A DNA stretch of 64,000 bases from IMG/VR virus record IMGVR_UViG_2880395615_000010. One strand, 5' to 3'. The first letter of the stretch is position 1. Each line of letters starts with the position of its first letter. Below, one piece after another: positions 39,001-45,000 of the stretch. Position numbers: made by a program. The DNA comes from a virus (lineage: Duplodnaviria; Heunggongvirae; Uroviricota; Caudoviricetes).

Positions 39001-42000
39001 ATACTATCGGTCTTGGCAACAACGAATCTCTGGTGTACGGCGTGTTTCCCAACCAGGACGGCACATTCACCGCGATGACGTATACCAAAAGCAAAACGTT
39101 TAAAACCGAAAATGGTGCCCGTCGCTGGCTGGAAAGAAACTCAGGTGAGTGATATGGATTTCGACACAATCATGGAAAAGGCTTACGAAGAATACTTCGA
39201 AGGTCTTGCCGACGGCGAAGAAGCTCTCGGCTTCAACGAATTTAAACAGGCGCTTTCCAGTTCGGCAAAATCTAACGGCTGATAAGCGAAACAGCACCGC
39301 GAGGAATCAGTATGCAGAAACGAGAACCCGTCATCATCGCGCCAGACTATACCGATGATGAACTTTATGAGTGGATGCGCCAGAAAATTAATGCAGCGCA
39401 GGATTTGAAATGGGCCAATGAAGCCAGGGCTAAGCAGGCTGAAAATCTGTCCGCTCTGGAGCAGGATATCACCAATCTGGAAAAAGCAGCGGCATTAAGC
39501 ATTGCCAGAATGATTACATACCCGCGTTAGTAGCTAATCAACAAAGCTAAGGTTAGTAATTAAGGAGTTCTCCACGGGTGAGGTGGAGTGCGTGCGCCGG
39601 ACACGGGTGAGCATCCGGCATTGACAGTTTACTGAAAGGATATTTCCCTGAAAAGTCAGACCATAACGCGAAAGCGCACGGCGAGGTAGCTGGTTCATAG
39701 ATAGCCTGTCGTTAAATTTTCGTCGACCGTGCGCTTCCGGTTGTGGCAATCCGCGAAATGGCGCGGCGGTAAGTATGGCGGGGTTATTCCTTCCCCCGTT
39801 GAGGACACCGGGTTGTCAGGTTGACCATACGCTTAAGTGACAACCCCGCTGCAACGCCCTCTGTTATCAATTTTCTGGTGACGTTTGGCGGTATCAGTTT
39901 TACTCCGTGACTGCTCTGCCGCCCTTTTTAAAGTGAATTTTGTGATGTGGTGAATGCGGCTGAGCGCACGCGGAACAGTTAAAACCAAAAACAGTGTTAT
40001 GGGTGGATTCTCTGTATCCGGCGTTAATTGTTAACTGGTTAACGTCACCTGGAGGCACCAGGCACCGCATCACAAAATTCATTGTTGAGGACGCGATAAT
40101 GGAAACGTTATTACCAAACGTTAATACGTCTGAAGGTTGTTTTGAAATTGGTGTCACTATCAGTAACCCTGTATTTACTGAAGATGCCATTAACAAGAGA
40201 AAACACGAACGGGAGTTATTAAATAAAATATGCATTCTTTCAATGCTGGCCCGTTTACGTCCGATACAAAAAGGATGCTGGCAATGAATACAGCATTTGC
40301 ACTTGTTCTGACAGTTTTTCTTGTTTCCGGAGAGCCAGTTGATATTGCAATCAGTGTTCACAGGACAATGCAGGAGTGTGTGACTGCAGCAACCGAACAG
40401 AAAATTCCCGGTAACTGTTACCCGGTCGATAAAGTTATTCACCAGGATAATAACGAAATCCCGGCAGGTCTTTAAAACAGTTCCGTAATAAACATCCGAT
40501 TTCATTCTTATATGCCAGCAATGGCAGGGATTTGTTCACCCTTAAATCTGTCATGAGGTTAAAACAAATGAGTAAAGTCTTTATTTGCGCTGCCATTCCG
40601 GACGAACAGGCAATAAAACAAGAAGGCGCTAAACCTGTAGCCACAGCCATTGAAGCCGGTGATGAACGTCGCGCCCGCGCAAAATTTCACTGGCAATTCC
40701 TGGAACATTATCCGGCTGCTCAGGACTGCGCTTATAAATTTCTTGTTTGCGAGGATAAACCCGGTATACCCCGCCCTGCCCTCGATTCCTGGGATGCTGA
40801 ATTTATGCAGGAAAACCGCTGGGATGAGGAGTCTGCTTCCTTTGTCCCGGTTGAGACTGAATCAGATCCTATGAACGTCACTTTTGACAAGCTGGCCCCT
40901 GAAGTACAGAACGCTGTCATGGTTAAGTTCGACACATGTGAAAACATCACCGTTGATATGGTGATTAGCGCGCAGGAACTGTTGCAGGAAGACATGGCAA
41001 CATTCGACGGACATATCGTTGAAGCGTTGATGAAAATGCCAGAAGTTAACGCCATGTATCCGGAGCTTAAGCTGCATGCCATCGGGTGGGTTAAGCATAA
41101 ATGTAAGCCTGGTGCCAAATGGCCCGAAATTCAGGCAGAGATGCGCATCTGGAAAAAACGTCGCGAAGGTGAACGCAAGGAAACCGGAAAATACACGTCT
41201 GTTGTTGATCTCGCCCGCGCCAGAGCCAATCAACAGCACACTGAAAATTCAACAGGAAAAATCAGCCCGGTCATTGCTGCCATTCATCGCGAATACAAGC
41301 AGACATGGAAAACACTGGATGACGAACTGGCCTACGCTCTCTGGCCTGGTGATGTGGATGCCGGAAACATTGACGGCAGCATCCATCGCTGGGCAAAAAA
41401 TGAAGTTATCGACAACGACCGCGAAGACTGGAAGCGTATCTCGGCATCAATGCGCAAACAGCCTGATGCCCTTCGCTACGACCGCCAGACTATTTTTGGC
41501 CTTGTCCGTGAACGTCCGATCGACATTCACAAAGACCCTGTGGCACTGAACAAATACATTACTGAATACCTGACTACAAAGGGCGTGTTTGAAGATGAAG
41601 GAAGAAATCAGAGCGCAACTGATACTCTCTCGTCGCCAGTACCAGAAACTGATGCAGTGGAAACGGCAATTCAGGACAACGAAAAAACCGAATGCAAAGT
41701 GGAAGTCGAACCATCTGTAGAGCGTGAGGGGCCGTTCTACTTCCTCTTCACCGACAAGGGTGGCAAAAAATACGGTCGCGCAAACAAACTTTCTGGTCTG
41801 GATAAGGCACTGGCTGCCGGGGCTACTGAAATCACGAAAGAAGAATATTTCGCCCGCAAAAACGGTACATACTCAGGTTCACAACAAAATACTGGTGCAT
41901 CTGACACGACCGCACAACCAGGGCCGGTAAAAGTTACCGCTGACGAAGTAAACAAAATTATGCAGGCAGCCAATATCAGCCAGCCTGACGCCGATGAACT

Positions 42001-45000
42001 GCTTGCAGTATCACGTGGTGAATTTGTTGCAGGGATTAGCGACCCGAATGATCCGAAATGGGTGAAGGGGATTGAAACCCGCGATTCTGTGAACCAGAAC
42101 CAGCAAGAAACGGAACAGAACGACCAGAAAGCGGAACAAAACAGCCCAAATGCGTTACAAAACGAGCCAGAAACGAAACAGCCTGAACCAGTAGCGCAAC
42201 AAGAACAGGAAAAGATCTGCACCACCTGCGGTCAGAGCGGTGGCGGCAACTGCCCTGATTGTGGCGCGGTGATGGGCGACGCAACATACCAGGAAACATT
42301 CAATGAAAAAAATCAGGTCGAATCTCAGGAAAAAGATCCGGAAGAAATGGAAGACTCTGAACATCATCACAAGGAGGACGCTGGCAATGATCACTATCAC
42401 GATAGCGATGGTGAAACTGGCGAGACGACAAATACCTTAATTAAGGCGAACGATCATCACAAAGCCACATCCGCCAGCAGAATGTGGTACCACCTGATGC
42501 TCGACCTCGAGACGATGGGAACTAACACCAACGCGCCCATAGTGGTTATTGGTGCTGTGTTTTTCGATCCGCAGACAGGGGAAATCGGGCCAACGTTTTA
42601 TATCGTTATCAGCCTAGCTGACGCAATGACCACAGGTGCTGTTCCGGATGGTTCCACCATTGAATGGTGGCTGGCGCAGTCCAGTGAGGCGAGATCTGCA
42701 ATCTTGGTAGACCAGGTAAAACTGAAGGATGCCCTTTTACGGTTCCGGGAATTCATCAGCGAACATTCAGATGAGAAATTCGTGCAGGTATGGGGCAATG
42801 GCGCAACTTTCGACAACACAATTTTACGCCGTTCATATGAACGGCAGGGGATCACCTGCCCGTGGCATTACTGCAACGATCGCGACGTGCGCACAATCGT
42901 CGAACTGGGAAAAACCATCGACTTTGATGCCAAGACAGCTATTCCATTCGAAGGCGTACGCCATAATGCACTGGATGACGCTCTCCACCAGGCAAAATAC
43001 GTTACAGCCACCATACAAAAAATGATCCCGGATCAGGCTGATTTTTAATGTTCAACCCTGATCGCCGCTAACCGCATATAGTTAGCGGCGGTTATGAGAT
43101 ATGGCTATGAGCAGCTTATTTTTAACCGAAGATGAATTGCTAATATTAACGGGCTGCAAATATGCAAGCCACCAGCGAAAATGGTTAATAGAAAATGGGC
43201 TTCCGTTCTATACCAATCGCAGTGGCAAACCGATTGTCAGCCGGGATCTATTTACCTGCAATAAAACTTTACCACCACGCGAGGTAGAGCCGAATTTTGG
43301 TGCGATCTGATGGGAAGACGAAGGAAAAACCCTGAACACGAAAGATTACCTCCAAATGTATACCCAAATAAATATAGTTATGTATGGAAACCAACATCCA
43401 GAGAATCTGTAACACTAACCGCCATCAAAGATGGTTTAGCCGCGTTATGGAAAAAGTATGAGGAAACTGTAAATAACCGCGATCGTGCAATGACATTTGG
43501 TCGCTTGTGGGAAAAATTCCTCGCCAGCGCCTGTTACAGTGAGTTGAGCCCAAGAACACAAAAAGATTATCTGCAACATCAAAAAAAGTTGCTTGCCGTA
43601 TTCGGTAAGGTGCCGGCAGATTCCATAAAACCAGAACACATCCGTCGATACATGGACAAAAGAGGGGAGCAGAGTAAAACGCAAGCCAACCATGAAAAAA
43701 GCAGTATGTCCCGTGTTTACAGTTGGGGGTATGAGCGAGGGTACGTGAAGGCTAACCCATGTGCAGGTGTAAGTAAATTCAAGGCCAAAAACCGCGAACG
43801 ATATGTAACCGACAAAGAATACCAGGCAGTATTAAGCGTTGCACCTCTTCCTGTTTTCATCGCAATGGAAATTGCCTATCTGTGTGCAGCGAGGATTTCC
43901 GATGTGTTATCGCTGAAATGGGAGCAGATTGGAAACGACGGGATCTTTATCCAGCAAGGGAAAACAGGGAAAAAACAGATAAAAGCATGGAGTCCACGAT
44001 TACAGGCGGCGATCGAAAAAGCAAAACAGTTACCAACATCCGCCTATGTAATCAGCAACCAATACGGCAACCGATATATGTACAAAGGCTTTAACGAAAT
44101 GTGGGTAGAAGCAAGAAATCGTGCTGGAAAAATTTCAGGTATTTTAACCGACTTCACCTTTCATGATCTGAAGGCGAAAGGAATTTCAGACTATGAAGGA
44201 AGTAGCCGGGATAAGCAACTTTTCTCTGGTCACAAAACCGAAGGGCAAGTGCTAATCTATGACAGGAAGGTTAAAGTTTCACCAACACTTAATATCCCGT
44301 TACCTGAAAATATTCCAAGAAAATATTCCAAGTAATTCCAAGTGTGATTTTTGTCACTGACTTAATGATGTGTAAGTGATTGAATTTTGGCGGAGAGAGG
44401 GGGATTTGAACCCCCGGTGGAGTTGCCCCCACTCCGGTTTTCGAGACCTATGCTATGGGTTAATAAAATCAATATATTATGTGTTTTATTTGGAATAAAT
44501 ATTCTATATTTAGGATTGAAAAATCAGATGGTTAGCATCAAACAACCTCAGAATATTCCAAGCAAACAGGTTAAAAATAAAACTGCACCCGAACAATTGA
44601 TAACGACAGAAAACGCCTTTTCCGAGCCACCAAAATTACTTCGCATCCTATTTATTGCTCACGTTAACGCCTTGTATAACTCGAGCTCTCCACGGTATTT
44701 AACCTCTCTTCTGTTTAACTATAATTCCAATAAATCTCGTCACTGAGCTCAATCACTTCGAAAGTCAAGCACAATATGAATTTCACATAAGCTATCAATG
44801 AAAATCGGAGGTCATACCATTAATCAACAATAAACCAAGTCTTTCTCATATAATCACTTGACAAACACTCATGATAATTGTAATAAAATATATAAGGCTA
44901 TAATACAATACTGTCAATCAATATTTCATTTATATGAGAAAAAGGCATTTATAATGTCAATTATAAAAAACTGCTTATCATTAATTAACAATGCATTAAA

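What the first reader, a model, noticed from the sequence alone, without database searches (positions are those of the whole stretch)
40532..43048. 838-aa early protein with DnaQ-like exonuclease domain, zinc ribbon and His-rich segment, no annealase partner
Seen: the C-terminal roughly 190 residues carry the three DEDDh exonuclease motifs (DLETMG; WGNGATFDN; HNALDDA). Upstream are a C-x2-C-x8-C-x2-C ribbon, a His/Asp-rich stretch and a long acidic Gln/Glu-rich linker. Established: the gene sits where lambdoid phages carry exo/bet or recE/recT, which are 5'-3' PD-(D/E)XK-type exonucleases paired with an annealase. No annealase is adjacent here; the upstream genes are ydfD-like and dicB. Inference: this may be a recombination or anti-defence nuclease with swapped catalytic chemistry.
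Basis: partly seen in the sequence, partly recalled or inferred. Interest (0 to 1): 0.55.

Follow-up and report, generated by a model that had tools for sequence, protein, structure and literature searches.

The report
RecE scaffold with swapped exonuclease
This early prophage gene, the intact form of E. coli K-12's broken ydfE, joins the non-catalytic body of the recombination nuclease RecE to an opposite-polarity (3'-5') exonuclease of the phage T4 DexA type; it is present in about half of E. coli genomes, but I found no published test of its function.

Summary
The gene (probable start ATG 40568, 826 aa; the 838-aa ORF starts at an upstream TTG) ends in an intact DEDDh exonuclease domain (Pfam Rv2179c-like, E 4e-68). 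The closest solved relative is T4 DexA. The zinc ribbon and His-rich segment are 70% identical to the same part of Rac RecE, and the N-terminal domains are also shared with RecE proteins. It is the intact ydfE of a Qin-type dicBF operon (96% identical to the K-12 pseudogene), lying just before xis-int, with no annealase in the prophage or in viable phage mEp460.

Best reading (about 0.45): an early 3'-5' DNA-end-processing exonuclease of a RecE-like recombination module. Main rival (about 0.3): an inter-phage conflict nuclease like EcD/HREX. The family is catalogued but uncharacterised: a new variant of a known kind.

The parts
40568..43048 (+). Gene: intact ydfE-type exonuclease, 826 aa plus stop. 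The maximal ORF starts at TTG 40532 (838 aa).
40568..40867 (+). Platform domain D1 (residues 1-100), alpha/beta, small ferredoxin-like fold.
40880..41242 (+). Platform domain D2 (residues 105-225), all-helical. D1 and D2 are probably what Pfam calls YdfE_N.
   Evidence: 96% identical to K-12 YdfE residues 1-256.
41300..41602 (+). Platform domain D3 (residues 245-345), helical, shared with bona fide RecE proteins.
41729..41863 (+). Platform domain D4 (residues 388-432), small beta-beta-alpha-beta-alpha unit with the motif ERxGPFY...GRANK...EIxxEEYxARKNG. Also present in RecE-type and Rad52-like-type relatives.
41987..42430 (+). RecE-type central segment (residues 474-621): acidic Gln/Glu-rich linker, zinc ribbon, His/Asp-rich stretch. 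70% identical to Rac RecE residues 471-611.
42218..42262 (+). Zinc ribbon C-x2-C-x7-C-x2-C (residues 551-565).
   Evidence: Kept in 208 of 211 homologues.
42491..43009 (+). DEDDh 3'-5' exonuclease domain (Pfam PF16473 Rv2179c-like; DexA-like), residues 642-814.
42503..42520 (+). Exo I motif DLETMG (catalytic D646, E648).
42791..42814 (+). Exo II motif WGNGATFD (catalytic D749).
42962..42982 (+). Exo III motif HNALDDA (catalytic H799, D804).
42872..42874 (+). Codon 769 (TGC, Cys): equivalent of DexA W152. The most variable column of the domain among E. coli homologues (H/Y/C/T/S).
38310..38729 (+). Repressor-like regulator (dicA position) at the head of the early-left arm, followed by a bidirectional terminator at 38774-38810.
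39873..39924 (+). DicF sRNA, part of the same dicBF-type operon.
   Evidence: 76.7 bits, gathering score 48
40099..40287 (+). dicB (cell-division inhibitor), upstream in the operon.
40284..40475 (+). ydfD-like DUF1482 gene, immediately upstream.
43101..43310 (+). Excisionase-like DUF4224 gene, immediately downstream.
43310..44335 (+). Tyrosine integrase; end of the prophage.

Best explanation
What it is (near certain): the intact YdfE protein of a Qin-type lambdoid prophage. It is a mosaic. It has four folded N-terminal domains and a zinc-ribbon/acidic/His-rich linker that are homologous to the non-catalytic body of RecE (exonuclease VIII). RecE's C-terminal 5'-3' PD-(D/E)XK nuclease is replaced by a DexA-like DEDDh domain with all catalytic residues intact. 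How it most likely works (inferred): it is transcribed with ydfABC-dicF-dicB-ydfD from the repressed early-left promoter when the prophage is induced or the phage infects. It then acts as a metal-dependent 3'-5' DNA exonuclease. The RecE-type platform tethers it to the same DNA ends or partners that the platform serves in RecE. It therefore takes the exonuclease position in a RecE-like recombination/end-processing module, resecting or trimming 3' ends rather than 5' ends. No dedicated annealase is needed if complementary 5' overhangs anneal spontaneously or with host help, as in XthA-driven in vivo cloning, or if its job is trimming 3' flaps and tails. Shown: architecture, homologies, gene position, absence of an annealase, motif conservation. 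Inferred: substrate, polarity, timing of expression, and the role in recombination.
Against: No experiment exists for this family. No annealase is present in the phage. 3'-5' resection yields 5' tails, which canonical RecA or SSAP pathways do not use. A paper title indicates that loss of the host 3'-5' exonuclease ExoI (xonA) enhances RecET-mediated assembly, so such activity can oppose tail-based annealing (PMC13048471, title and abstract only). The DEDDh domain is the most variable folded part (78% mean identity against 94-97% for D3/D4). The W152-equivalent residue is hypervariable. Both patterns are more typical of conflict genes than of housekeeping recombination. The only characterised E. 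coli homologue (EcD) is a defence nuclease. The platform's own fold gave no functional clue.
Confidence: 0.45

Rival explanations
1. Inter-phage conflict nuclease (HREX-like). The DEDDh domain selectively degrades DNA of competing phages, for example DNA with modified bases, during lytic growth or through leaky expression in lysogens. Residue 769 tunes which DNA is attacked.
For: EcD, an E. coli DexA homologue, digests 5hmC T4 DNA but not unmodified dsDNA and protects against T4 even without induction (PMC12153337). DexA W152A and D169A lose activity on T4 DNA only. The W152-equivalent is the most variable of 190 columns. It toggles H/Y/C between otherwise identical domains, all changes are non-synonymous and affect two codon positions, and there is no Dcm site. 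The effector domain is more variable than the platform. A stand-alone homologue lies between gpA and the portal gene in a P2-like phage; from my own knowledge, that is a defence-gene hotspot. The gene is retained in 2842 of 5426 complete genomes.
Against: EcD's signature is not met. The D90-equivalent (tetramer residue, Ala in EcD) is Asp in 84 of 84 domains, and the W152-equivalent is never Trp. The gene lies in the repressed early-left operon with no promoter-like site upstream. This reading does not explain the fusion to a RecE platform whose identified sister modules are a recombination nuclease and an annealase. Hypervariability could equally reflect escape from a host sensor or inhibitor.
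Confidence: 0.3
2. Anti-defence nuclease. It destroys a host immune nucleic acid that has a free 3' end, for example retron msDNA or other DNA or RNA signals or guides, early in infection.
For: Early-operon position. Exonuclease chemistry. A hypervariable contact residue is consistent with an arms race.
Against: No tool result links it to any defence system. No known anti-defence family matched. The platform's relatives point to recombination.
Confidence: 0.1
3. 3'-5' exoribonuclease acting on RNA, as the Pfam family name and PGAP's product name suggest. Possible targets are operon transcripts such as the DicF precursor, or short RNAs.
For: Pfam PF16473 is named after the M. tuberculosis exoribonuclease Rv2179c. 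PGAP names some homologues '3'-5' exoribonuclease'. DicF is processed from the same transcript.
Against: The closest characterised relatives by sequence are the DNA exonucleases DexA and EcD. No Rv2179c structure was matched even at E of 1 or below. The fusion partner is a DNA-recombination scaffold.
Confidence: 0.08
4. Functionless mosaic remnant that persists only because prophages recombine.
For: The gene is disrupted in K-12 Qin. Some variants are internally deleted (P0121) or carry catalytic substitutions (P0232).
Against: The full-length reading frame is intact in thousands of genomes and in viable phages. The catalytic and zinc-binding residues are almost invariant. Divergent lineages keep the same architecture.
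Confidence: 0.03

Closest known systems
RecE (exodeoxyribonuclease VIII) of the Rac prophage and its Gifsy/HK225 homologues
   Same: Long N-terminal non-catalytic region with a shared domain (D3) and small motif domain (D4). Near-identical zinc-ribbon/acidic/His-rich segment (70% identity). Same position at the end of the early-left operon before xis-int.
   Different: The catalytic domain is DEDDh (3'-5'), not PD-(D/E)XK (5'-3'). No recT follows. The extreme N-terminus is YdfE_N rather than PF06630. It scores far below the RecE equivalog cutoff.
T4 DexA (exonuclease A; PDB 8kel/8ken)
   Same: Same DEDDh subfamily. The Exo I-III residues and the NxRD[VI]RT motif align. The D90 and D169 equivalents are kept.
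   Different: DexA is a 227-aa stand-alone protein with extra loops. About 29% identity. W152 is replaced by Cys here and is hypervariable in the family. This protein carries a 640-residue RecE-type N-terminal extension.
EcD / HREX (E. coli DexA homologue, GenBank HAK9828821.1; PMC12153337)
   Same: An E. coli-borne DexA-like DEDDh exonuclease. The Exo I motif and the D90-equivalent position have identical spacing, judged from the primer-derived N-terminus MIDTET and the paper's residue numbering (A78).
   Different: EcD is cloned as a short stand-alone protein (starts MIDTET..., ends ...TIPETY). It lacks the tetramer Asp (A78) and keeps the Trp. The window protein keeps the Asp, has Cys at the Trp position and is fused to the RecE platform. 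I could not retrieve EcD's sequence, so the percentage identity is unknown.
YdfE of E. coli K-12 (Qin cryptic prophage pseudogene b1577)
   Same: Ortholog: identical synteny (dicA-ydfABC-dicF-dicB-ydfD-ydfE-int) and 96% identity over residues 1-256.
   Different: The K-12 copy is cut by IS2E after residue 256 and lacks everything downstream, including the nuclease.
Lambda Red (Exo/Bet) and other two-component exonuclease-annealase recombinases
   Same: Early-left operon position. One sister protein has a Gam-like gene directly upstream.
   Different: No annealase partner, different nuclease fold, opposite polarity.
XthA-dependent in vivo cloning (PMC6379578)
   Same: Mechanistic analogy only: a 3'-5' exonuclease creates complementary 5' overhangs that allow homology-directed joining of linear DNA (title and abstract only); that it needs no phage annealase is from my own knowledge.
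   Different: XthA is an unrelated host enzyme (from my own knowledge, of the EEP fold), and no platform is involved.

Membership tests
RecE / exodeoxyribonuclease VIII | Reaches the NCBIfam equivalog NF007259 cutoff (1269 bits) | tested here: not met
   268.9 bits, two partial stretches
RecE / exodeoxyribonuclease VIII | C-terminal PD-(D/E)XK nuclease domain (Pfam DUF3799-like) | tested here: not met
   No Pfam hit. No phmmer match to the Rac or Gifsy RecE nuclease domains. hhalign RecE versus DEDDh probability 0.1%.
RecE / exodeoxyribonuclease VIII | Central zinc-ribbon/acidic/His-rich segment preceding the nuclease | tested here: met
   70% identity to Rac-SA53 RecE residues 471-611, E 2e-62
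RecE / exodeoxyribonuclease VIII | N-terminal PF06630 Exonuc_VIII domain | tested here: not met
   No hit in the window protein at E of 1 or below. It is present in Rac RecE and in the divergent DEDDh-type relatives P0240 and P0259.
RecE / exodeoxyribonuclease VIII | recT annealase gene immediately downstream | tested here: not met
   xis and int follow directly. Compare Rac and Gifsy-2.
DEDDh (DnaQ-like) exonucleases, Rv2179c/DexA subfamily (PF16473) | Pfam match above the gathering score | tested here: met
   229.1 bits against a cutoff of 27, covering profile positions 2-175 of 177
DEDDh (DnaQ-like) exonucleases, Rv2179c/DexA subfamily (PF16473) | Exo I (D-x-E), Exo II (D) and Exo III (H-x4-D) catalytic residues | tested here: met
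   D646/E648, D749, H799/D804. They align with DexA and are kept in 208-211 of 211 homologues.
DEDDh (DnaQ-like) exonucleases, Rv2179c/DexA subfamily (PF16473) | 3'-5' exonuclease activity and substrate (DNA or RNA) | not testable with these tools
   Needs enzymology
HREX / EcD-type defence exonuclease (PMC12153337) | Loss of the DexA D90 tetramer residue (dimer-only enzyme) | tested here: not met
   The D90-equivalent (residue 721) is Asp here and in 84 of 84 distinct domains
HREX / EcD-type defence exonuclease (PMC12153337) | Conserved Trp (DexA W152) for 5hmC recognition | tested here: not met
   Cys769 here. H/Y/C/T/S in the family, never Trp.
HREX / EcD-type defence exonuclease (PMC12153337) | Conserved acidic residue (DexA D169) | tested here: inconclusive
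   Asp785 aligns and is Asp in 80 of 84 domains, but the position lies in a gapped loop of the alignment
HREX / EcD-type defence exonuclease (PMC12153337) | Selective digestion of modified phage DNA and protection from T4 | not testable with these tools
   Needs assays
YdfE family (Pfam PF27430 YdfE_N + PF27432 YdfE_C) | Both Pfam domains present | tested here: inconclusive
   These two models are not in the local Pfam copy. They are precomputed on homologues 85-91% identical to the window protein and are named.
YdfE family (Pfam PF27430 YdfE_N + PF27432 YdfE_C) | Orthology with K-12 ydfE (sequence and synteny) | tested here: met
   96% identity over 256 aa; same gene order including DicF, dicB and ydfD
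Two-component phage recombinase (exonuclease + annealase) | An SSAP (RecT/Bet, Erf, Rad52/Sak, Sak4) encoded with the exonuclease | tested here: not met
   None in the window prophage's early region or in mEp460. The platform's own domains show no SSAP fold.

The most novel reading that the evidence does not exclude
The enigmatic N-terminal region of RecE is an autonomous, portable recombination or DNA-end-targeting platform. Phages swap alternative effector modules onto it: a 5'-3' PD-(D/E)XK exonuclease, a 3'-5' DEDDh exonuclease, a Rad52-type annealase, and at least one unidentified module. The DEDDh version, the intact YdfE found in about half of E. coli genomes, would be a reverse-polarity, annealase-independent end-processing enzyme. 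Its substrate choice would be tuned by a single rapidly evolving residue (769, the equivalent of DexA's modified-base sensor W152), so the recombination machine would double as a weapon or shield in conflicts between phages, or between phage and host.
Probability: 0.25. Interest if true: 0.75.

Novelty: new variant of a known kind. Interest (0 to 1): 0.55.

Why it matters
The function of RecE's roughly 560 N-terminal residues has never been worked out, even though full-length RecE is a standard tool for direct cloning. The same platform is fused to an opposite-polarity exonuclease, and in other phages probably to an annealase. That gives a concrete handle: whatever the platform binds or targets should be common to all these proteins. 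Intact YdfE is one of the most widespread prophage genes in E. coli (at least 80% of the gene is present in 2842 of 5426 complete genomes). It is absent only by accident from K-12, which may explain why I found no study of it. If it promotes annealase-independent joining it could be a new recombineering reagent. If residue 769 sets specificity for modified DNA, that would link the recently proposed HREX defence idea to a very large prophage-borne family. It would also correct the view that these are 'bacterial' rather than phage early genes.

Tried and rejected
1. EcD sequence. I tried to recover it in order to measure identity to the window domain. Only the primers are available. Scans of viral and genome collections for the 20-nt 3' primer core gave one chance hit each, with no DEDDh ORF. 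The stand-alone homologues of mEpX2, phage 899, Nissle 1917 and F1055 are not EcD.

2. Second homologue search. A search with a profile of distant N-terminal regions was swamped by near-identical E. coli entries and added no diversity.

3. Clustering of C-termini. My first single-linkage clustering wrongly merged all 'other' C-termini with the RecE nuclease. An HMM test, stricter clustering and hhalign corrected this.

6. Promoter scan. There is no sigma-70-like site directly upstream of the gene, so independent expression in lysogens is unsupported but not excluded.

7. Literature. Searches for Rv2179c plus prophage, ydfE plus Qin, and ydfE plus exonuclease found no functional study.

8. Mutational hotspot at codon 769. 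I rejected a Dcm or single-nucleotide hotspot as the cause of its variability: there is no CCWGG at the codon and the changes affect two codon positions.

9. Hidden annealase. I rejected a hidden annealase among neighbouring or unannotated genes.

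
Full report
OBSERVATION. The ORF 40532-43048 (+) exists. The maximal ORF starts at a TTG and gives 838 aa. PGAP, in a 100%-identical record (E. coli O55:H7 DEC5B, WP_063183380.1 'exonuclease'), starts at the ATG at 40568 and gives 826 aa. PHROG 2082 also starts matching at ORF residue 13. I use 826-aa numbering from here on.

The C-terminal domain matches Pfam PF16473 (Rv2179c-like 3'-5' exoribonuclease domain) at 229 bits against a cutoff of 27. The zinc ribbon is CTTCGQSGGGNCPDC (551-565), which is C-x2-C-x7-C-x2-C rather than x8. 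The Gln/Glu-rich acidic linker and the His/Asp-rich stretch are present. The catalytic motifs are intact in 208-211 of 211 full-length homologues and the ribbon in 208 of 211. The pattern is therefore conserved, not a chance occurrence.

GENE CONTEXT. The neighbourhood is a Qin-type dicBF operon. In order: a repressor-like gene (38310-38729) followed by a 16-bp-stem bidirectional terminator (38774-38810); ydfA and ydfC; DicF RNA at 39873-39924 (Rfam 76.7 bits); dicB at 40099-40287 and a ydfD-like DUF1482 gene at 40284-40475; this gene; a DUF4224 excisionase-like gene at 43101-43310; and the integrase at 43310-44335.

E. coli K-12 has the same order in Qin: dicA-ydfA-ydfB-ydfC-dicF-dicB-ydfD-ydfE-IS2E-intQ. 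There ydfE is a pseudogene cut by IS2E. K-12 YdfE residues 1-256 are 96% identical to the window protein. The window gene is thus the intact ydfE. Newer Pfam models call its non-catalytic parts YdfE_N (PF27430) and YdfE_C (PF27432).

No sigma-70-like site lies directly upstream. By position, the gene is the last large gene of the repressed early-left operon.

ABUNDANCE. At least 80% of the gene is present in 2842 of 5426 complete E. coli genomes. DEDDh-domain DNA is detectable in 4220 of them. The gene also occurs in viable lambdoid phages, including mEp460, Evi, Tritos, HannyBb and the PPompW phages. Public annotations vary: 'exonuclease', '3'-5' exonuclease', '3'-5' exoribonuclease domain-containing protein', and, wrongly, 'exodeoxyribonuclease VIII'.

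RELATION TO RecE. The protein is not RecE. It scores 269 bits against the RecE equivalog cutoff of 1269 and has no PD-(D/E)XK domain. It does share RecE's non-catalytic body:
- Residues 474-621, which hold the acidic linker, zinc ribbon and His-rich stretch, are 70% identical to Rac-SA53 RecE residues 471-611.
- Residues around 136-370 match the RecE proteins of Gifsy-1/2, SPN3UB, HK225, mEp237 and Klebsiella phages at 28-42% identity.
- In Rac and Gifsy-2, recE sits in the equivalent slot and recT follows it.
- Here, in mEp460 and in phage 689R5, xis-int follow directly.

No annealase is annotated in the whole mEp460 genome. None is detected among the unannotated early ORFs of mEp460 or of the window prophage by Pfam or PHROGs. 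[quoted passage not shown]

STRUCTURE OF THE N-TERMINAL PART. I built an AlphaFold2 model of residues 1-470 from a 27-sequence alignment of diverse relatives. Mean pLDDT is 83.8, with 325 residues at 90 or above. It shows four folded units joined by disordered linkers:
- D1, residues 1-100, alpha/beta.
- D2, residues 105-225, helical.
- D3, residues 245-345, helical.
- D4, residues 388-432, small beta-beta-alpha-beta-alpha, carrying the conserved motif ERxGPFY...GRANK...EIxxEEYxARKNG.

THE PLATFORM IS MODULAR. An exhaustive search with residues 1-470 found only 189 representatives in 1.84 billion proteins. I classified the long representatives with local searches and Pfam. Their C-termini fall into four groups:
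(i) RecE-type PD-(D/E)XK nuclease. This includes a DUF3799 cluster that matches the RecE nuclease at 91% hhalign probability.
(ii) DEDDh.
(iii) A 19-member cluster with the motif EYMxMRATExFGPxGxGWG...YGxTPY...KKSLTDAxKKALSxLGFSADV.
(iv) An unidentified helical domain, in a cluster of 11.

These proteins occupy the same slot. One has a Gam-like gene directly upstream and a Gp157-family gene downstream. The Stenotrophomonas phage BUCT708 example is similar. So the identified modules the platform carries elsewhere, an exonuclease and an annealase, are recombination activities.

The DEDDh fusion has arisen on two N-terminal variants. The window has the YdfE_N type, while P0240 and P0259 have the PF06630 Exonuc_VIII type. 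In every case examined the gene lies directly before xis-int and has no annealase.

THE NUCLEASE DOMAIN. By sequence, the only solved relatives are 8kel and 8ken, annotated 'Exodeoxyribonuclease' (E 1.5e-8 for the single sequence, 2e-15 for a family profile). These are T4 DexA and its S87A/D90A mutant (PMC12153337). That paper describes DexA as a 3'-5' exonuclease that acts on unmodified host DNA (scavenging) and on 5hmC phage DNA (intron homing). D90 and S87 are needed for the tetramer. W152, from the adjacent subunit, and D169 are needed for activity on T4 DNA only.

The paper also characterises an E. coli homologue, EcD (GenBank HAK9828821.1). EcD lacks D90 (it has A78), keeps the Trp and Asp, digests T4 DNA but not unmodified dsDNA, and protects cells from T4. 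The authors call this 'HREX'. EcD's primers show that it begins MIDTET and ends TIPETY, so it is a different, short protein. I could not retrieve its sequence.

I mapped the DexA residues onto the window domain. The alignment is anchored by the ungapped P-x3-W-N-x-R-D-[VI]-R-T motif. D90 maps to Asp721, W152 to Cys769, and D169 to Asp785, the last in a gapped loop. The EcD signature is therefore not met.

A HYPERVARIABLE RESIDUE. I compared 84 distinct DEDDh domains from E. coli YdfE-type homologues.
- Position 769 is the most variable of the 190 columns: H 38, Y 28, C 13, T 4, S 1, never Trp.
- Asp721 is invariant.
- Asp785 is kept in 80 of 84.

Position 769 toggles between domains that are identical everywhere else (H/Y; Y/H/C). 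It is the column that most often differs among near-identical pairs, in 60 of 250. The codon is TGC here and TAC in mEp460. It is not in a Dcm site. The observed set of residues requires changes at codon positions 1 and 2, all non-synonymous. More distant stand-alone relatives keep Trp.

The DEDDh domain as a whole is more variable than the platform: 78% mean identity against 94-97% for D3 and D4. The window's allele is a rare one, with only 8 records at 99% or above.

Caveat: these sequences are the top hits of two searches, not a random population sample. No formal codon-selection test was run.

STAND-ALONE RELATIVES. DEDDh homologues of about 180 aa occur in 828 phage records. Their contexts are early DNA-metabolism regions:
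- Erf-SSB-DEDDh-Abc2 in lambdoid mEpX2.
- Directly before xis-int, downstream of rdgC, in Nissle 1917 and Salmonella F1055.
- Next to Cox and primase in a P2-like phage.
- Between gpA and the portal gene in P2-like phage 899. From my own knowledge, this is a known hotspot for defence genes.

INTERPRETATION. The identity and architecture are secure. For function, I favour an early-expressed 3'-5' DNA exonuclease that occupies the exonuclease position of a RecE-like recombination/end-processing module (about 0.45). The reasons are as follows:
- The identified sister modules on the platform are a recombination exonuclease and a probable annealase.
- The slot is the recombination slot.
- Stand-alone homologues sit among Erf, SSB, Abc2 and RdgC genes.
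- DexA itself takes part in DSB-repair-based intron homing.

Lack of an annealase is not fatal. In E. coli, a 3'-5' exonuclease (XthA) drives homology-directed joining of linear DNA through complementary 5' overhangs (PMC6379578, title and abstract only); that this needs no phage annealase is from my own knowledge.

Against this reading: the polarity is unconventional. A paper title indicates that removing host ExoI improves RecET-mediated assembly (PMC13048471, title and abstract only). The variability pattern looks like that of a conflict gene.

The main rival (about 0.3) is an inter-phage conflict nuclease of the HREX kind, with residue 769 setting substrate choice. It is weakened by the unmet EcD signature, the repressed-operon position and the unexplained RecE platform. 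The two readings are not exclusive.

Lesser rivals are an anti-defence nuclease (0.1), an exoribonuclease as the Pfam name suggests (0.08), and a functionless remnant (0.03).

NOVELTY. The family is catalogued (Pfam YdfE_N/YdfE_C plus Rv2179c-like; PHROG 2082; PGAP names), so it is not a new sequence family. I found no paper on its function. Relative to characterised systems (RecET, Red, DexA, EcD) it is a new variant: a RecE scaffold with a DexA-type nuclease and no annealase. Three observations appear not to be described in the papers I could search: the modular platform (nuclease, reverse-polarity nuclease or Rad52-like annealase), the hypervariable W152-equivalent, and the prophage early-gene context of the E. 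coli copies of what PMC12153337 calls 'bacterial' DexA homologues.

Noticed in passing
[not shown]
   Followed up: partly
window 42872-42874 (codon 769): The residue equivalent to T4 DexA W152 (5hmC recognition) is the single most variable position of the DEDDh domain among E. coli homologues. It toggles H/Y/C between otherwise identical domains.
   Followed up: partly
Representatives P0125, P0205, P0217-P0219, P0238, P0239, P0243, P0255, P0257, P0267: A fourth class of C-terminal module on the same platform (a helical domain; phrog_26058 C-terminus) has no match to the RecE nuclease or the Rad52-like cluster and only a weak 32-column hhalign match (29.5%) to the DEDDh set. Its identity is unknown.
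   Followed up: partly
Representative P0232 (752 aa): A DEDDh-type family member has substitutions at catalytic positions (DLK instead of DLE; FAN instead of FDN), so it may be an inactive variant. P0121 is an internally deleted form lacking Exo I.
   Followed up: no
window 39873-39924 (+): DicF sRNA (Rfam RF00039, 76.7 bits) lies in the same operon, upstream of dicB. The whole arm mirrors the K-12 Qin dicBF operon.
   Followed up: yes
window 38774-38810: A perfect 16-bp-stem bidirectional terminator-like hairpin lies just after the repressor-like gene, ahead of ydfA.
   Followed up: no
window 44858-45607 and 45932-46804 (+): Just beyond the integrase, in a low-GC stretch (about 35% GC), are an AvrPphF-ORF-2-family gene (espJ-like) and an EspF-repeat protein (tccP/espFU-like). 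The second holds a 141-bp tandem repeat in 4.3 copies (46184-46783, 97% matches). These are T3SS effector cargo at the prophage end.
   Followed up: partly
window 29360-29549 (-), 29626-29875 (-), 34120-34295 (-): STnc100 sRNA, a cluster of three tRNA genes (Arg-tct, Arg-tcg, and a CAT-anticodon tRNA that PGAP calls Ile), and a sok antitoxin RNA next to hokD, all in the late/nin region of the same prophage.
   Followed up: no
window 47201-48520 (-) and beyond: A second prophage begins to the right. It has a tail-fibre gene with collagen-like Gly-X-Y repeats, so the window spans two adjacent prophages.
   Followed up: no
window about 44376-44500: In other genomes an integrase at the equivalent position, next to the same exonuclease gene, abuts tRNA-Ser. 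ARAGORN finds no tRNA here. ORF translations suggest only a tRNA fragment at the attachment site.
   Followed up: no
L002:1785-3134 (phage mEp460): A 449-aa gene of unknown function (phrog_8571) lies between the replication genes and the Q-like gene and is transcribed in the opposite direction to them. It could be a moron or defence cargo.
   Followed up: no
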